A DNA stretch of 11,855 nt from a virus (IMGVR_UViG_2675903621_000013:1-11855); one strand, 5' to 3'; shown: positions 1 to 9,344, numbered from the stretch's first letter. The notes: a model not told the origin generated them from the letters alone. Translations and numbers: made by a program.

Positions 1-1615
1 CTTCATCCGCAGGCGTGGGATCGGCTTTCATACGGGCATAGAGAATTTCTTTTGCGGTGTCCGTTCCCACTTCACACAGATACACGCCCCGCTGATTGCG
101 GGTTTTTGGCATGGTGATCACCGGCTTGCCATAGACAGATACGCCTTTTACCGGCAGCACCCGGAAAACACCGTGTTTTTTTGATCTCTGATAAACAATT
201 TCACCATCGATCCCCCCGGTGTCCCAGCAGACACGGGAAATAGTCATTTCGGTGCCATCCGCATGGCGGTATTTTTTGTTGATCGCCGCATCCACACGTA
301 ACAGCGTCTCTTCCTCATCAGGACGCCCCATAATGATGATTTTATCCACCAGAAAGGCTTCCTCTCCCGGAGCCCATCCCCAGACATACATCTCAAAACG
401 GTTTCGCTGCGAGTCAATGCCCGCCGTCAGATAAACCACCCGGGCAGGCACCGCCGCCGTGTAACGCACCACCTTATCCATCAGTACCTGGTGATCGAGT
501 TTTTCGCCCACGGCCTCTTCCCAGGTCTCGCCCAGCGTGGTGTTCACAAAGGTTTTCAGGCCGTTGGGATCTTTCAGTGCATCCAGCCAGTCATAGACAA
601 TCTGTACCCAGGTGGTGAACGGACTGTACGCCGTCCAGATATGGAACGTGATGGAGCGCGGCGGCGGAATTTCATCACCCCGGGCGCTGAAAAACGTCAG
701 ACCGTCACGGGTCCACATGCCCGTGTTTTCACAGATCCACCGCCCGTTACTCTGGTCAAGCTCAGACTGATGGATCACACAGCCATGATGCTCACAAAGG
801 TAGAAAACACTTTCTGGCTTATTCTTCTCCCACTTAAGACCGAAAGGCGAGGCATCATCGCCAAATTTCAGATACTGCTCCTCCCCACAGTGCGGACAGG
901 GCACATAAAAACGCATGAAGTGTGCCGACTCGTTAGCGGCTTTTTCGATCTGGCAGGTGCCTTTGATTTTAGGCGTCGAGCCGCGAATGGATTTTGGCCA
1001 CACCGACCCCTCAATACGCTTATCCCCCAGCAGGGTTGGCGAGCCCTCTTTTTCGACATCCGGCTCGAACGAGGAAAGTTCGTCATAGCAGACCACGTCC
1101 ACGGATTTTTCACGGTAGTTTTTGGCGGCAGCGCCGCCCAGGCACCAGAAACCGACGCCCGATGAAAAGCGTTTCAGCGTGAGAGTATTGTCACGATGTT
1201 TACGACCCAGCCATGGGGAAAGGTCTTTCAGGCATGGCACGTTCCGAATCGTCGCCTCCACGTGAGACTTCATAAAATCTTCAGCGGCAGAATCCGTGGG
1301 CTGAAAAAGCAGACTGTTTCGGGATTTATGCTCAATAAAATACCCGACCACCCCCAGCAACATCTTTGTATAGCCAACACGGGCAGATTTAATCAGGTTA
1401 ACCGTGCGAACCTGGTCGTTACCCATACAGTTCATGATGGCGATCTGGAATGGCAGCGTTTTCCATTCTCCCTCACCATATGAAGATTCTTTAGGCAGAT
1501 AATAATTTTGATCAGCCCATTCAACTGCCGTCATTGGTACAACCCTGACCAGAGGCTGCAGCGCAACCGAAACGGCAGCCATCATATTATTCAGTTGTTG
1601 CTCTGATATATTCAT
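1..1615 (-). CDS. A: Terminase large subunit, lambda gpA-like; N-terminal ~538 aa present, C-terminus lies beyond the window start
   Basis: Minus-strand translation from ATG at 1613-1615 (MNISEQQLNNMMAAVSVALQPL...VEWADQNYYLPKES...KRFSSGVGFWCLGG...CPHCGEEQYLKFGD...FVNTTLGETWEE...) is open to position 1 and aligns along its length with lambda gpA as I remember it. Its start lies 26 nt upstream of the Nu1-like stop, as in lambda Nu1/A. It is absent from the ORF track because it runs off the window edge. Confidence 0.93.
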   Translation of the reverse strand, partial: MNISEQQLNNMMAAVSVALQPLVRVVPMTAVEWADQNYYLPKESSYGEGEWKTLPFQIAIMNCMGNDQVRTVNLIKSARVGYTKMLLGVVGYFIEHKSRNSLLFQPTDSAAEDFMKSHVEATIRNVPCLKDLSPWLGRKHRDNTLTLKRFSSGVGFWCLGGAAAKNYREKSVDVVCYDELSSFEPDVEKEGSPTLLGDKRIEGSVWPKSIRGSTPKIKGTCQIEKAANESAHFMRFYVPCPHCGEEQYLKFGDDASPFGLKWEKNKPESVFYLCEHHGCVIHQSELDQSNGRWICENTGMWTRDGLTFFSARGDEIPPPRSITFHIWTAYSPFTTWVQIVYDWLDALKDPNGLKTFVNTTLGETWEEAVGEKLDHQVLMDKVVRYTAAVPARVVYLTAGIDSQRNRFEMYVWGWAPGEEAFLVDKIIIMGRPDEEETLLRVDAAINKKYRHADGTEMTISRVCWDTGGIDGEIVYQRSKKHGVFRVLPVKGVSVYGKPVITMPKTRNQRGVYLCEVGTDTAKEILYARMKADPTPADE

Positions 1616-2096
1616 CGAGTAAATCCGGTAATTTATCCCCTGCCCGCGCACACTGATTTGCCCCCTTAGCAATAAGGGTTTTCAGATGGTCAAGATGGCG
1701 CGGTGTTAAATCAGGAAACTGTCGCTGCATGGATAAAGGGATGGAATCAAGCGTACTGGATAACGCCATTGCCAGCTTACTGAGGGCAAAAATACAGAAC
1801 CCGGTGTCAATAAGTTTTCCTTTTGACACCTCATTTTTTAGCTGCTGTGTAACAGCCTGTTCTGCTGTCAGTTCCCATCTGGCAATAAGCAATTTCTCCT
1901 CATAGTCGTCTTCGCTATCGCCATCAGGCACATCGTTTTTACTTCTCCTCAGATACGATATGTAAAAATCGCGCCAGGCATCCAGATCCAGTTGCCCTCG
2001 CTTATTCGATATCGGGGCACCCGGCAATTTCTGCAATCTGCGAAGCTGGCGATCGGTCAGACTTAAATGCCTGGCAACTTCAGTCTGCGTAGCCAC
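1587..2096 (-). CDS. Nu1: Terminase small subunit, Nu1-like
   Basis: 169-aa ORF whose C-terminal half (FCIFALSKLAMALSSTLDSIPLSMQRQFPDLTPRHLDHLK) resembles lambda Nu1 (FCTFVLSRIAGEIASILDGLPLSVQRRFPELENRHVDFLK, from memory). Sits immediately downstream of cos and overlaps the large-subunit start. Start codon reads GTG at 2094-2096, preceded by GAGGTGAGGA. Confidence 0.88.
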   Translation of the reverse strand: MATQTEVARHLSLTDRQLRRLQKLPGAPISNKRGQLDLDAWRDFYISYLRRSKNDVPDGDSEDDYEEKLLIARWELTAEQAVTQQLKNEVSKGKLIDTGFCIFALSKLAMALSSTLDSIPLSMQRQFPDLTPRHLDHLKTLIAKGANQCARAGDKLPDLLDEYIRATTE

Positions 2097-2249: not shown

Positions 2250-2261
2250 AGGTCGCCGCCC
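2250..2261. other. cosN, lambda-type 12-nt cohesive-end site (GGGCGGCGACCT on the minus strand)
   Basis: The reverse complement of 2221-2262 reads GGGGCGGCGACCTCGCGGGTTTTCGCTATTTATGAAAATTTT, matching the lambda left end (GGGCGGCGACCTCGCGGGTTTTCGCTATTTATGAAAATTTTCCGG) as I remember it. The reverse complement of 2262-2280 (GGCGATCCGACAGGTTACG) matches my recollection of the lambda right end. Confidence 0.82.
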
Positions 2262-2460
2262 CGTAACCTGTCGGATCGCCGGAAAGGACCCGCAAAATGA
2301 TAATAATTATCATCTACATGTCACAACGTGCATCTACGCCATCAAACCACGTCAAATAATCAATTATGACGCAGGTATCGTATTAATTGATCTGCATCAA
2401 CTTAACGTAAAAACAACTTCAGACAATACAAATCAGCGACACTGAATACGGGGCAACCTC

Positions 2461-2694
2461 ATGTCAACGAAGAACAGAACCCGCAGAACAACAACCCGCA
2501 ACATCCGATTTCCAAACCAGATGATTGAACAAATTAACATCGCTCTTGTTCAAAAAGGGTCCGGGAATTTCTCAGCCTGGGTCATTGAAGCCTGCCGCCG
2601 GAGACTGTGCTCAGTAAAAAGAGTTTCGCCTGAAGCAAACAAAGAAAAGAGTGACATTACTGAATTGCTCAGAAAACAGGTCAGACCAGATTGA
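2461..2694 (+). CDS. Small ribbon-helix-helix-like protein (resembles the ylcI-type small proteins next to cos in E. coli lambdoid prophages)
   Basis: 77-aa ORF. The segment RNIRFPNQMIEQINIALVQKGSGNFSAWVIEACRRRL has the beta-strand then helix pattern typical of CopG/Arc/MetJ RHH proteins, with a basic N-terminal tail. Similarity to ylcI is from memory and unverified. Confidence 0.55.
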   Translation: MSTKNRTRRTTTRNIRFPNQMIEQINIALVQKGSGNFSAWVIEACRRRLCSVKRVSPEANKEKSDITELLRKQVRPD

Positions 2695-2751
2695 AGCAAT
2701 TTAGATAATCGTGCAGACTACGCCCCCTCATATCACATGGAAGGTACTACA

Positions 2752-3162
2752 ATGGCTCAGGTTGCCATTTTTAAACAAATATTCGATAAAGTGCGAAATA
2801 ATTTAAACTATCACTGGTTTTATTCTGAACTAAAACGTCACAATGTCTCACATTACATTTACTATTTAGCCACAGAGAATATTCATCTTGTTCTTGAAAA
2901 CGATAATACGGTTTTAATAAAAGGACAGGGTAAGGTTGTAAATGTAAGATTTTCAAAAAATAAATGCCTTATAGAAGCCACCTTAAAAGGATTCAAATCA
3001 GGAGAGTTATCATTTTACGAATACAGGAAAAATCTTGCTACAGCAGGGGTTTTCAGATGGATTACAAATATCCACGAAAACAAAAGGTATTACTATACCT
3101 TTGATAATTCATTACTCTTTACTGAGAACATTCAGAACACTACACAAATATTTCCGCACTAA
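2752..3162 (+). CDS. DUF1398-like hypothetical protein (ybcV-like moron), AT-rich
   Basis: ORF track gives 2737..3162; the ATG at 2752 (MAQVAIFKQ...) has a GGAAGG Shine-Dalgarno 8 nt upstream whereas 2737 has none, giving 136 aa. The gene is visibly AT-rich relative to flanking phage genes and is transcribed opposite to the late operon. Family assignment is from memory. Confidence 0.65.
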
Positions 3163-3469: not shown

Positions 3470-3934
3470 TTATCTGAGGCATTGCTCTCGAATGTATAGC
3501 TGTGCCCCTTCAAGTTGTTTTTGCATTATTATCAGTCGCGCTCTGAGGGTGAAATAATCCCGTTCAGCGGTGTCTGCCAGTCGGGGAGAGGCTGCATTAT
3601 CCACGCCGGAGGCGGTGGTGGCTTCACGCACTGACTGACAGACTGCTTTGATGTGCAACCGACGACGACCAGCGGCAACATCATCACGCAGAGCATCATT
3701 TTCAGCTTTCGCATCAGCTAACTCCTTCGTGTATTTTGCATCGAGCGCAGCAACATCACGCTGACGCATCTGCATGTCAGTAATTGCCACGTTCGCCAGC
3801 TTCAGTTCTCTGGCATTTTTGTCGCGCTGGGCTTTGTAGGTAATGGCGTTATCACGGTAATGATTCAGCCCCAGACTAAGCGCACCACAGGCCACCAGCA
3901 GGGCAATGATGACCACGCACAGTACGCGGTTCAT
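3470..3934 (-). CDS. Rz: Rz i-spanin (inner-membrane spanin), lambda-type
   Basis: 154-aa product ...[111 protein letters not shown]... is near-identical to lambda Rz as I remember it. Confidence 0.95.
3532..3714 (-). CDS. Rz1: Rz1 o-spanin (outer-membrane lipoprotein), embedded in Rz in the +1 frame
   Basis: 60-aa product [60 protein letters not shown] has a lipobox (VVGC), a proline run, and near-identity to lambda Rz1; it is nested entirely within Rz. Confidence 0.9.
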
Positions 3935-4802: not shown

Positions 4803-5360
4803 CTAAATACGCACTTTAAGATAAGTCAGCCCCGGATGAAGCCAGTAAGCCGGCACTTTTTTAAAGGGCGGATTATCAAAATCACGAAGAAGAGCCTCCC
4901 GCACAACTGCATCCTTGTCCGCACCACTGGCCAGCGCTTCAATCTCAGCAGCTATCTGCAGATATCCCATGCAACGGCCAACGCGCTTCATCAGCCCCTG
5001 CTTTTTATTGTTCTTCAGGTAATCAATGGCAAATTCAATGAGCTCCTCACTGTGCTGGTGCGATGGAGGTGTTACTTTCCCATTTTCTGAGATGGTTATT
5101 TTCCCGGCATCACCGGATACAACAAAGGATGGCCGGTTACACTCCCATTCCAGCTCACTGAAATTATCATTATGAATACTGAAACACTCTGCGAGATTTT
5201 TGCTCATCACTTTCCGACAATAATCGTCAAACGCAGCAAACTGCTCATCGCGGCGTTTTTTTTCATCTTCAGAAGGCATCAGCGTCGACAGTTTTTTATT
5301 CAGTTCAGCAATTTCATTTTCCAGGCGACTGAAGCGCTGATTCATTTCTTCATGGTTCAT
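4803..5360 (-). CDS. Hypothetical 185-aa protein inserted between holin and endolysin (same position as ydfR in the Qin prophage)
   Basis: GGGGAGAG Shine-Dalgarno upstream of the ATG at 5358-5360, tightly packed against the holin stop. The N-terminus is coiled-coil-like (EEMNQRFSRLENEIAELNKKLSTLMPSEDEKKRRDEQ). No family recognised by eye. Confidence 0.75.
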   Translation of the reverse strand: MNHEEMNQRFSRLENEIAELNKKLSTLMPSEDEKKRRDEQFAAFDDYCRKVMSKNLAECFSIHNDNFSELEWECNRPSFVVSGDAGKITISENGKVTPPSHQHSEELIEFAIDYLKNNKKQGLMKRVGRCMGYLQIAAEIEALASGADKDAVVREALLRDFDNPPFKKVPAYWLHPGLTYLKVRI

Positions 5361-7843: not shown

Positions 7844-8179
7844 ATGAAGTGGATTGTGATTGATACAGTTATCCAGCCATCATGCGGAATATCTTTTTCA
7901 GTCATATGGAGTAAAATAAAATTAATAATCTGGTATCAATCGGATGCTTTCTTACCTCCTGAAAGTATATTTACACTGACTCACACAGGTATCATGCTCA
8001 ATAACAAAGTGCTACCTGTAACCATTTACAACGTAGTACCATTCAATAAAACATTCTGGAATTTAATCAAAAACAGCCAGGAATGCCCTACAAATACAGA
8101 TAACGTATTGAATGAATGCTTTAATAACCGTTGCACTCTGCAAATATGTCCTTATGGGCTAAAACAACAAAGTCCATAA
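7844..8179 (+). CDS. Hypothetical AT-rich 111-aa ORF, divergent from the late operon
   Basis: AAGGA Shine-Dalgarno 6-7 nt before the ATG; possible sigma70 promoter upstream (TTTACA ... TATACT around 7766-7795). Cysteine-rich C-terminus ([26 protein letters not shown]). No minus-strand ORF of 60 aa or more anywhere in 7724-8626. No family recognised. Confidence 0.35.
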
Positions 8180-8196
8180 GGAGTTTACTCACATCT

Positions 8197-8235
8197 GACA
8201 AAATCAATATAAACAGCCCCTCCGGAGAGGGGCTG
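8197..8235 (-). terminator. Intrinsic-terminator-like hairpin (minus strand)
   Basis: Perfect 9-bp stem CAGCCCCTC / GAGGGGCTG (8214-8222 and 8227-8235) with loop CGGA. On the minus strand it is followed by TTTATATTGATTTTGT. Confidence 0.45.
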
Positions 8236-8626
8236 GAGAGTGGCGCTATGTGCCATTGCATGGTGCCGGGTGCCTCCCGGTGAATTCAGTACCAGCACCT
8301 GAATCCGCGATTATCCCATATACCTACTCGCTGATTGCCCCTCCGCACAGGGGGATTCACCATGCCAGTTTCTTTTAACAAACTCCCCGCAAACCAGACA
8401 ACAGTCAACCGCCTGAATTGTGAAGTATTTAAAAATTTCTCCCGCTAACTGATACCCGGCTAACAGTCTGGCGTTTTCTTTTTCAGCAACGGGAAAGCAA
8501 CAACCACCACACCCGCCACCAGCACACCGTCAGCCAGCACTGACATTATCCGGCTGCTGCAATGCCATTCACAAAAACAGTAAGCTATCACTTTTTACCG
8601 TAACAGGTGATAATCCAGATATGTAT

Positions 8627-9090: not shown

Positions 9091-9167
9091 TGGCGCGTTG
9101 TACTGGATTCGAACCAGTGACCGATTGCTTAGAAGGCAATTGCTCTGTCCGGCTGAGCTAACAACGC
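9091..9167 (-). tRNA. tRNA-Arg (anticodon UCU)
   Basis: Minus-strand 77-nt sequence folds as a canonical cloverleaf: acceptor GCGTTGT/ACAACGC, D stem GCTC/GAGC, anticodon stem ATTGC/GCAAT with loop CTTCTAA, T stem ACTGG/CCAGT with loop TTCGAAT, and an encoded CCA. Confidence 0.9.
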
Positions 9168-9268: not shown

Positions 9269-9344
9269 TGGTGGCCCTTGCTGGATTTGAACCAGCGACC
9301 TGGCGATTATGAGTCGCTCGCTCTCACCACTGAGCTAAAGGGCC
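9269..9344 (-). tRNA. tRNA with CAU anticodon, most likely tRNA-Ile2 (ileX/ileZ-like; lysidine-modified to read AUA)
   Basis: 76-nt cloverleaf: acceptor GGCCCTT/AAGGGCC, D stem GCTC/GAGC, anticodon loop CTCATAA, T stem GCTGG/CCAGC with loop TTCAAAT, encoded CCA. Close to E. coli ileX as I remember it. A Met identity cannot be excluded from sequence alone. Confidence 0.85.

What the first reader, a model, noticed from the sequence alone, without database searches (positions are those of the whole stretch)
2461..3162. RHH-like small protein followed by a DUF1398-like protein: a two-gene moron module beside cos
These are two co-oriented plus-strand genes 57 nt apart, transcribed opposite to the flanking phage genes, in the slot where lambda carries bor. 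The first has the strand-plus-helix signature of ribbon-helix-helix DNA-binding proteins (antitoxins and repressors); the second is an AT-rich 136-aa protein of unknown function. A small RHH regulator followed by a larger uncharacterised partner is the layout of many toxin-antitoxin and abortive-infection modules. Relatives of both genes (ylcI, ybcV) occur in E. coli K-12 DLP12 but are, to my knowledge, functionally uncharacterised.
Basis: partly seen in the sequence, partly recalled or inferred. Interest (0 to 1): 0.5.

Follow-up and report, generated by a model that had tools for sequence, protein, structure and literature searches.

The report
Common lambdoid ynfO–ydfO-type accessory genes
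Two small, real genes beside the DNA-packaging site of a lambda-like prophage, a probable ribbon-helix-helix DNA-binding protein followed by a protein of unknown role, are common in E. coli and have homologues in phage lambda, and they do not behave like an obligatory toxin-antitoxin pair.

Summary
ORF1 (2461-2694, 77 aa) is a YlcI/YnfO (DUF3950) protein. ORF2 (2752-3162, 136 aa, 32% GC) is a YdfO/YbcV (DUF1398) protein. They lie 57 nt apart on the plus strand, antisense to Rz and Nu1, about 200 nt from cosN. Both are under purifying selection.

The RHH call for ORF1 is supported by structure prediction and fold search, but not by sequence profiles.

The toxin-antitoxin/abortive-infection reading is not supported. 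In 5,426 E. coli genomes there are 9,861 ylcI copies but only 3,850 prophage-type DUF1398 copies. About 5,000 further DUF1398 copies (ycgX) have no ylcI. 153 phage records carry ylcI and 43 carry DUF1398. Some lambdoid prophages carry DUF1398 without ylcI. DUF1398 matches no toxin or defence model, and its lambda homologue is dispensable.

The layout equals ynfO-ydfO of the K-12 Qin prophage. Lambda has both genes with ybcW inserted between them.

Best reading: an accessory ("moron") slot whose constant member is a small RHH regulator, here with a DUF1398 cargo gene. This is ordinary and already catalogued, although both functions remain untested.

The parts
2461..2694 (+). ORF1: YlcI/YnfO-family protein (DUF3950), 77 aa, basic (17 K+R against 7 D+E)
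   Evidence: Pfam DUF3950 E 2.1e-20; NCBIfam YlcI_YnfO_N; PHROG 949; dN/dS 0.08-0.19 for the core against its more divergent partners
2500..2610 (+). Conserved RHH-like core of ORF1 (residues about 14-50: NIRFP strand segment, helix 19-32, GSGN turn, helix 37-53)
   Evidence: Alignment A4 of divergent members; AlphaFold model pLDDT 70.6; Foldseek top hits almost all RHH proteins
2611..2694 (+). Variable C-terminal tail of ORF1, here the long 'CSVKRVSPEANKEKSDITELLRKQVRPD' class that is linked to an adjacent DUF1398 gene
   Evidence: Mosaic junction after about residue 50; tail class against DUF1398 presence
2695..2751 (+). 57-nt spacer with the Shine-Dalgarno-like GGAAGG (2739-2744) for ORF2; no terminator-like site on the plus strand
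   Evidence: Sequence; terminator scan
2752..3162 (+). ORF2: DUF1398 (YdfO/YbcV/YcgX family) protein, 136 aa, 32% GC, no hydrophobic segment
   Evidence: Pfam DUF1398 E 3.3e-43; PDB 2HH8 (YdfO) E 2.9e-67; hydropathy maximum 0.39; dN/dS 0.22
2250..2261 (.). cosN cohesive-end sequence (complement of lambda GGGCGGCGACCT), about 200 nt upstream of ORF1
   Evidence: Exact unique match; alignment to the lambda right and left ends
2359..2391 (.). Imperfect inverted repeat ATCAATTATGACG / CGTATTAATTGAT, 70-100 nt upstream of ORF1. A candidate operator only. Conserved in lambda- and Qin-type phages but absent upstream of ylcI in YYZ-2008.
   Evidence: binding untested
1587..2096 (-). Nu1-like terminase small subunit (boundary of the slot)
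   Evidence: Pfam Phage_Nu1 E 1e-18
3470..3934 (-). Rz spanin with Rz1 nested at 3532-3714 (other boundary of the slot)
   Evidence: Pfam Phage_lysis E 2e-52; ORF list

Best explanation
This is the non-essential accessory ('moron') slot between the lysis cassette and cos of a lambdoid prophage. ORF1 is a small basic ribbon-helix-helix-type protein. It most likely dimerises, binds DNA and acts as a transcriptional regulator, and it is the constant cos-proximal occupant of this slot. ORF2 is an AT-rich, horizontally mobile cargo gene for a soluble cytoplasmic DUF1398 protein whose biochemical activity is unknown. In this haplotype, which has the same layout as ynfO-ydfO of Qin, the two genes are probably co-transcribed antisense to the late operon, and so mainly when late transcription is off, as in the lysogen. 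They are linked by descent in one haplotype rather than forming an obligatory pair, and ORF2 is not a toxin held in check by ORF1. Shown: gene reality, family membership, RHH-like fold, slot position, presence/absence polymorphism. Inferred: dimerisation, DNA binding, regulation, co-transcription, timing of expression.
For: Families and purifying selection. RHH-like fold: helix-turn-helix core after an NIRFP segment. Foldseek top hits against PDB and BFVD are almost exclusively RHH proteins (MazE9-N, NikR, HicB, VapB, Arc, CopG, AtaR, CdbA, NikA), with TM 0.57-0.66 and rmsd 1.2-2.0 A over 37-41 columns. Slot and polymorphism: lambda has ylcI-ybcW-DUF1398-bor; Qin-type has ynfO-ydfO; other prophages have ylcI-iss or ylcI alone. 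In 180 distinct ylcI contexts, DUF1398 follows in 86 of 87 with the long tail (the exception is an IS5 insertion), in 12 of 23 with the lambda-type tail, in 0 of 42 with the other E. coli tails and in 0 of 28 from other clades. Genome counts: 9,861 ylcI places against 3,850 prophage-type DUF1398 places in 5,426 E. coli genomes; 153 against 43 phage records. DUF1398 without ylcI: ycgX next to bluR and lambdoid prophages with Nu1-cos-ProQ-DUF1398-Rz. Composition: 32% GC. No terminator-like site on the plus strand between or after the genes. Literature: lambdap78 is non-essential (PMC10695390); lambda exchanges this region with Qin and stays viable (bioRxiv 10.64898/2026.09.04.749371); ylcI is transcribed in K-12 (PMC12288877); YdfO overexpression is reported to raise oxidative-stress resistance, and ydfO is stress-induced (PMC4077768).
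Against: No convincing sigma-70 promoter was found upstream of ORF1 (best 8/12), and no terminator after ORF2. Sequence-profile evidence for RHH is not significant: Pfam gives only DUF3950 at E up to 10, the best RHH hit in PDB is CdbA at E 0.64, and hhalign against Arc gives 7% probability. The monomer model does not show the beta-strand. No DNA target is known, and the upstream inverted repeat is not conserved in YYZ-2008. The strict linkage of the long ORF1 tail with an adjacent DUF1398 at fixed spacing is also what a cognate pair would show. The activity of DUF1398 is unknown, and the AlphaFold model was too poor (pLDDT 55) for a fold comparison.
Confidence: 0.6

Rival explanations
1. Type II toxin-antitoxin or abortive-infection module: ORF1 is an RHH antitoxin whose C-terminal tail neutralises a DUF1398 toxin.
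For: RHH-like regulator upstream of a larger unknown protein, same strand, 57 nt apart. The long ORF1 tail class is followed by DUF1398 in 86 of 87 contexts at fixed spacing.
Against: DUF1398 occurs without any ylcI in about 5,000 E. coli chromosomes as ycgX and in lambdoid prophages L354-L356. In lambda-type phages, DUF1398 (76% identical) sits behind an opposite-strand gene and a ylcI with a different short tail. Two DUF1398 alleles that are 24% divergent share an almost identical tail, so there is no co-variation. There is no match to toxin families or to PADLOC defence models. YdfO was produced for an NMR structure (2HH8), and ybcV/ydfO overexpression clones gave non-lethal phenotypes. lambdap78 knock-down has no effect on plating. 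At least 61% of ylcI copies have no DUF1398 partner.
Confidence: 0.06
2. ORF1 serves the phage itself rather than the lysogen. It would be a DNA-binding factor acting on late read-through or packaging near cos (a roadblock, insulator or antisense regulator), and DUF1398 would be an unrelated passenger.
For: In E. coli lambdoids ylcI always lies between the lysis cassette and the terminase genes, whichever packaging module is present (Nu1/A or HNH-TerS-TerL), and is always antisense. Family members in satellites and other phages are likewise lone antisense genes inside long one-directional operons. Two members are fused to the N-terminal HTH of a Terminase_2 small subunit.
Against: Outside E. 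coli the position is not next to the packaging genes: it lies between AntA and primase in satellites, and among tail-like genes in clade 3. The DNA upstream of ylcI is not conserved between packaging types. The lambda right-end region is described as non-essential. There is no functional data.
Confidence: 0.15
3. DUF1398 is a lysogenic-conversion factor with a specific anti-phage (superinfection exclusion) or counter-defence role, and ORF1 is its regulator.
For: The slot carries known lysogen-benefit genes (bor/iss). A neighbouring gene of the same slot in lambda (lambdap79/ybcW) is sensed by a defence system, and escape occurs by exchange with Qin, which shows that this region is under defence-related selection.
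Against: No PADLOC match. A near-core chromosomal paralogue, ycgX, exists. The literature found reports no phage-related phenotype.
Confidence: 0.12

Closest known systems
ynfO-ydfO of the Qin cryptic prophage (E. coli K-12) and its relatives
   Same: Same two families, same order and strand, same 57-nt spacer, same position between Nu1-type terminase/cos and the lysis genes, and the same long YnfO tail. YdfO has a solved structure, 2HH8.
   Different: The DUF1398 allele here is only about 76% identical in protein to the Qin/lambda type. The window allele is the one found at 99-100% identity in about 1,060 E. coli genomes and in phages ev099 and PhiR49_1.
Right end of phage lambda / DLP12: ylcI - ybcW (lambdap79) - ybcV (lambdap78) - bor
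   Same: Homologous ylcI core (94% identical protein) at the same distance from cosN, and a homologous DUF1398 gene in the same orientation.
   Different: Lambda has the opposite-strand ybcW inserted between the two genes, a short ylcI tail, and bor downstream. The window has none of these. The lambda ylcI homologue is unannotated in J02459 and NC_001416.
bor/iss-type morons of lambdoid phages
   Same: Same slot, same antisense orientation to the late operon, and presence/absence polymorphism among related phages.
   Different: Bor/Iss are lipoproteins with a known serum-resistance phenotype and an annotated promoter of their own. ORF2 has no signal peptide or membrane segment and no known phenotype.
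Arc/Mnt/CopG-type ribbon-helix-helix repressors
   Same: Size, an N-terminal basic arm followed by a strand-like N-I-R-F-P segment, two helices joined by a G-x-x-N/S turn, and best structural matches to RHH proteins.
   Different: No significant sequence-profile match. Dimer formation, operator and regulatory target are unknown.
Type II toxin-antitoxin operons with RHH antitoxins (e.g. ParD, RelB, VapB, MazE9, HicB)
   Same: A small RHH-like protein encoded upstream of a larger partner, and structural resemblance of the core to RHH antitoxin domains.
   Different: The partner is not a known toxin. The two genes are frequently found apart in both directions, and there is no tail-partner co-variation.

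Membership tests
DUF3950 / YlcI-YnfO family | Significant match to Pfam PF13132 and NCBIfam NF041551 | tested here: met
   E 2.1e-20 (72.8 bits, cutoff 25) and E 9.2e-9 (35.2 bits, cutoff 30)
DUF1398 / YdfO-like family | Significant match to Pfam PF07166 and to the solved member YdfO | tested here: met
   E 3.3e-43 over the full profile; 2HH8 E 2.9e-67 over residues 1-135
Ribbon-helix-helix (Arc/MetJ/CopG) superfamily | Strand-helix-turn-helix topology of about 45 residues | tested here: inconclusive
   The model has helices 19-32 and 37-53 after an extended NIRFP segment, but the strand is not formed in the monomer prediction; pLDDT 70.6
Ribbon-helix-helix (Arc/MetJ/CopG) superfamily | Structural similarity to solved RHH proteins | tested here: met
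   Nearly all top PDB and BFVD hits are RHH proteins, with TM 0.57-0.66 and rmsd 1.2-2.0 A. Individual E-values are weak at 0.5-6.
Ribbon-helix-helix (Arc/MetJ/CopG) superfamily | Significant sequence-profile match to an RHH family | tested here: not met
   Pfam at E up to 10 gives only DUF3950; the family profile against PDB gives CdbA at best, E 0.64; hhalign against Arc gives 7% probability
Ribbon-helix-helix (Arc/MetJ/CopG) superfamily | Dimerisation forming a two-stranded ribbon that binds the DNA major groove | not testable with these tools
   Only single-chain prediction was available, and there is no binding assay
Type II toxin-antitoxin module | The two genes co-occur as a conserved bicistronic unit | tested here: not met
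   9,861 ylcI against 3,850 prophage-type DUF1398 places in E. coli; ycgX and L354-L356 lack ylcI; 153 against 43 phage records
Type II toxin-antitoxin module | The partner belongs to a toxin family or is demonstrably toxic | tested here: not met
   No toxin family in Pfam or PADLOC. Toxicity itself could not be tested. The literature shows viable overexpression.
Known anti-phage defence systems | Match to a PADLOC model | tested here: not met
   ORF1 has none; ORF2 has only Csx23 at E 0.023, 12.7 bits
Phage moron / accessory cassette | Lies between functional modules, is dispensable, and shows presence/absence polymorphism among related phages | tested here: met
   Lies between Rz and cos/Nu1; slot contents vary; lambdap78 is non-essential
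Phage moron / accessory cassette | Deviant base composition | tested here: met
   ORF2 is 32% GC and ORF1 45%, against about 50% in the flanks
Phage moron / accessory cassette | Own promoter and terminator, expressed in the lysogen | tested here: inconclusive
   Only weak promoter-like sites (8/12) and no plus-strand terminator. K-12 ylcI is transcribed.

The most novel reading that the evidence does not exclude
YlcI-family RHH proteins may be a distinct, so far undescribed class of regulators that phages and phage satellites embed as a lone antisense gene inside long one-directional operons. They could insulate or gate read-through into packaging or replication genes. In some satellites they are fused to a TerS-like HTH and so might interfere with helper-phage packaging. 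In the long-tail haplotype seen here, the tail might additionally couple the regulator to its DUF1398 neighbour.
Probability: 0.12. Interest if true: 0.55.

Novelty: already known. Interest (0 to 1): 0.17.

Why it matters
As it stands this matters little. The genes are already catalogued, near-identical copies sit in over a thousand E. coli genomes, and homologues sit in phage lambda. The useful outcomes are modest:

(1) DUF3950/YlcI can reasonably be labelled an RHH-type DNA-binding protein.

(2) The pair should not be annotated as a toxin-antitoxin or defence module.

(3) The labels 'head protein' and 'putative envelope protein' on DUF1398 are unsupported.

(4) Even phage lambda still carries an unannotated, conserved RHH gene about 200 nt from cos whose function nobody has tested, and that is a cheap experiment.

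Tried and rejected
- **DUF1398 structure:** the AlphaFold model from a shallow alignment was poor (pLDDT 55). Its PDB search recovered only 2HH8 through sequence (TM 0.40), and the other hits are meaningless, so no fold-based function could be inferred.
- **Genome-contig scan for DUF1398:** it returned mostly lambda control-DNA contamination under unrelated taxon names, and nothing beyond Escherichia and Shigella.
- **First two viral scans:** they returned only near-identical copies. Clade-specific queries were needed.
- **YcgX as a query:** it reached only Escherichia and Citrobacter, so no distant DUF1398 contexts were obtained.
- **P0325 in viral contigs:** no match.
- **A packaging-site role for YlcI:** I considered this because of its cos-proximal position and the TerS fusions. 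I downgraded it because distant members are not next to packaging genes and the upstream DNA is not conserved.
- **Overlapping DNA/RNA constraint in the invariant part of ylcI:** I considered this, but the pattern fits recombination between lineages.
- **Pasteurella hit labelled 'transcriptional repressor':** the label belongs to a dubious opposite-strand ORF, not to the YlcI-like gene.

Full report
**What is there.** The window is the late region of a lambdoid prophage with the late genes on the minus strand: RusA, Q, a DNA methyltransferase, two tRNAs, a NanS-p-type esterase, holin, lysozyme, Rz/Rz1, then cos and a Nu1-like small terminase subunit. The lambda cohesive-end sequence is present once, at 2250-2261. 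Two plus-strand ORFs lie between cos and Rz. ORF1 (2461-2694, 77 aa) matches DUF3950 (E 2.1e-20) and NCBIfam YlcI_YnfO_N. ORF2 matches DUF1398 over the full profile (E 3.3e-43). The ATG at 2752 has GGAAGG 7 nt upstream and is the start RefSeq uses, which gives 136 aa and a 57-nt spacer. ORF2 is 32% GC in a context of about 50%. dN/dS is 0.08-0.19 for the ORF1 core against its more divergent partners and 0.22 for ORF2.

**How common it is.** The 1.27-kb region matches 4,772 of 5,426 complete E. coli genomes and 177 phage records. Phage lambda itself carries homologues of both genes at its right end, in the order ylcI-like ORF, ybcW (lambdap79, opposite strand), DUF1398 (lambdap78, labelled 'putative envelope protein'), bor. 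The lambda ylcI homologue is not annotated in J02459 or NC_001416. The Qin-type arrangement ynfO-ydfO has exactly the layout of the window, including the 57-nt spacer.

**ORF1 as a ribbon-helix-helix protein.**
- The family is very small: 106 representatives at E up to 1e-3 among 1.84 billion proteins, many of them frameshifted reads of lambda control DNA.
- Genuine divergent members share the core K-x-I-R-F-P-x-x-L-I-E-x-I ... N-F-S-A-W-V-x-E-A-C.
- Sequence profiles do not link this to RHH families significantly. Pfam finds nothing else at E up to 10. The best RHH in PDB is CdbA, aligned in register but at E 0.64. hhalign against Arc gives 7% probability.
- An AlphaFold model built on the diverse alignment (pLDDT 70.6) gives an extended NIRFP segment, helix 19-32, a four-residue turn and helix 37-53.
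- Foldseek against PDB and against viral models returns almost only RHH proteins (MazE9-N, NikR, HicB, VapB, Arc, CopG, AtaR, CdbA, NikA and 'Arc-type RHH'). TM is 0.57-0.66 and rmsd 1.2-2.0 A over 37-41 columns, although individual E-values are weak.

I accept the RHH assignment as structurally supported. Dimerisation and DNA binding are inferred.

**ORF2.** It is a close relative of YdfO, whose NMR structure (2HH8) carries no functional annotation. It has no hydrophobic segment or signal peptide, so the labels 'envelope protein' (lambda) and 'head protein' (PHROG 413, RefSeq phages) have no support here. There is no match to toxin or defence models. My AlphaFold model was too poor for a fold comparison. 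As sampled here, the family is confined to Escherichia and Citrobacter. The literature gives only scattered phenotypes:
- ydfO is strongly induced by an ionic liquid, and its overexpression is reported to raise oxidative-stress resistance.
- PdhR binds between ybcV and ybcW.
- ybcV overexpression alters glycogen accumulation.
- lambdap78 knock-down does not affect plating.

- In E. coli genomes the ylcI core has 9,861 places in 4,184 genomes. The 3' part of DUF1398, which does not cross-match ycgX, has 3,850 places in 3,019 genomes. At least 61% of ylcI copies therefore lack DUF1398.
- All DUF1398 matches total 8,879 places in 5,376 genomes. The roughly 5,000 extra are ycgX, which sits in bluR-ycgX-ymgL-ymgK-iraM-icd with no ylcI.
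- In the phage collection, 153 records encode the ylcI core and 43 encode DUF1398.
- In Stx-type phages such as YYZ-2008, ylcI stands alone between Rz and HNH-TerS-TerL. Another prophage has ylcI followed by iss.
- Conversely, lambdoid prophages L354-L356 carry Nu1-cos-ProQ-like-DUF1398-Rz and have no YlcI-like ORF in any frame.

A survey of 180 distinct ylcI contexts:

| ylcI tail class or clade | Distinct contexts | With DUF1398 within 2.5 kb downstream |
|---|---|---|
| Long tail (CS[EV]KRVS...RPD) | 87 | 86; the exception is an IS5 insertion |
| Lambda-type short tail | 23 | 12, all distal |
| Other E. coli tail classes | 42 | 0 |
| Other clades | 28 | 0 |

The pair is thus one haplotype of a mosaic slot and not an obligatory unit. 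Two DUF1398 alleles only 76% identical to each other sit behind practically the same tail, so the tail and the partner do not co-vary.

**Mechanism.** My best reading (confidence 0.6) is an accessory slot whose constant member is a small RHH regulator, here with a DUF1398 cargo gene. The two are probably co-transcribed, because no plus-strand terminator lies between or after them. They run antisense to the late operon and so are probably expressed mainly when late transcription is off. The weak points are the lack of a recognisable promoter, an unknown DNA target, and an unknown DUF1398 activity. The upstream inverted repeat at 2359-2391 is conserved in lambda- and Qin-type phages but not in YYZ-2008, where similarity begins at the start codon.

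The rivals, each with its estimated confidence:
- **Toxin-antitoxin or abortive-infection module (0.06).** It keeps only the fixed long-tail/DUF1398 linkage in its favour.
- **A phage-intrinsic role of YlcI in late read-through or packaging (0.15).** The invariant antisense position next to the terminase genes in E. coli phages and two TerS-HTH fusions suggest it. Different positions in other clades weaken it.
- **A defence or counter-defence role for DUF1398 (0.12).** It is not excluded.

**Recent context.** A 2026 preprint reports that lambda-vir escapes the 'Vulcan' NADase defence by losing lambdap79 (ybcW) through recombination with Qin. That exchange converts the lambda arrangement into the ybcW-less ylcI-DUF1398 layout seen in this window. 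It shows that the haplotypes are interchangeable and that the slot is exposed to defence-driven selection.

**Family-wide side observation.** YlcI-like genes are repeatedly the only gene on their strand inside long one-directional operons. In E. coli lambdoids they lie between Rz and the terminase genes. In P4/PICI-like satellites they lie between AntA and the primase: int - AlpA - AntA - [ylcI-like] - primase. In a third clade they lie among tail-like genes. This is the basis of the 'novel case', and it is untested.

**Verdict.** The finding is real, correctly described and correctly assigned to families. It is already catalogued, with near-identical copies in over a thousand genomes, named K-12 paralogues and homologues in lambda. 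Its proposed toxin-antitoxin/abortive-infection interpretation fails the co-occurrence test. Interest is low (0.17). The residual interest lies in the untested function of a conserved RHH gene about 200 nt from lambda's cos.

Noticed in passing
window 7844-8179 (+) and 8205-8394 (-): An IraM (anti-adaptor) homologue and the sRNA STnc100 (Rfam 132 bits) occupy the region between the tRNAs and the NanS-p esterase, where Stx phages carry stx. In the E. coli chromosome the DUF1398 paralogue ycgX also lies about 0.7 kb from iraM (bluR-ycgX-ymgL-ymgK-iraM-icd), which suggests that region is a remnant of a similar prophage.
   Followed up: partly
window 9091-9167 and 9269-9344 (-): Two tRNA genes, Arg(TCT) and a CAT-anticodon tRNA that ARAGORN calls Met and RefSeq calls Ile, lie between the DNA methyltransferase/Q region and the lysis genes. 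This is typical of Stx-like lambdoid prophages.
   Followed up: no
window 4803-5360 (-): A 185-aa ORF between holin and lysozyme has no Pfam match and is annotated only as hypothetical in the closest genome.
   Followed up: no
L195 4853-5032; L200 5998-6183; L283-L340; L341-L347: YlcI-like RHH genes are repeatedly the lone antisense gene inside long one-directional operons. Examples are P4/PICI-like satellites (int-AlpA-AntA-[ylcI-like]-primase) and a third clade among tail-like genes. In Pasteurella phage Pmp7 the gene is unannotated and overlaps a dubious 224-aa 'transcriptional repressor' ORF on the other strand.
   Followed up: partly
L348 973-1335 (+); proteins P0297, P0325: These are complete ORFs fusing the DUF3950 RHH core to the N-terminal HTH of a Terminase_2 small subunit. 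In L348 the ORF sits in a satellite-like element (AlpA, integrase) next to a lambdoid TerS whose N-terminus resembles the fused domain. This may be a packaging-interference protein.
   Followed up: partly
L354-L356 (e.g. L354 3213-3626 and 4001-4405): A lambdoid prophage type carries a ProQ/FinO-domain gene plus a divergent DUF1398 gene in the cos-Rz slot, with no ylcI.
   Followed up: partly
(e.g. L014, L016, L017, L022; P0152, P0178, P0194): Both genes lie on the 3.6-kb lambda fragment used as a sequencing control. Contigs of about 3.5 kb and 48.5 kb carrying them are deposited under unrelated organisms (Staphylococcus, Kitasatospora, Bradyrhizobium, a spider and others). This inflates the apparent taxonomic range of DUF1398 and DUF3950.
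   Followed up: partly
lambda NC_001416 47048-47452 and 48142-48303; PHROG 413: The lambda DUF1398 gene is labelled 'head protein' (RefSeq/PHROG) or 'putative envelope protein', although it has no membrane or signal features. The lambda ylcI homologue next to cos is not annotated in the reference records.
   Followed up: partly
lambda lambdap79/ybcW (absent from the window); A 2026 preprint reports lambdap79 as the activator of the Vulcan NADase defence, with escape by recombination with Qin. The window's haplotype lacks ybcW and would not present that trigger.
   Followed up: no
L097 438-1454: An IS5-family transposase is inserted directly after ylcI, replacing DUF1398 and the spanin genes in one IMG/VR prophage fragment.
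   Followed up: yes
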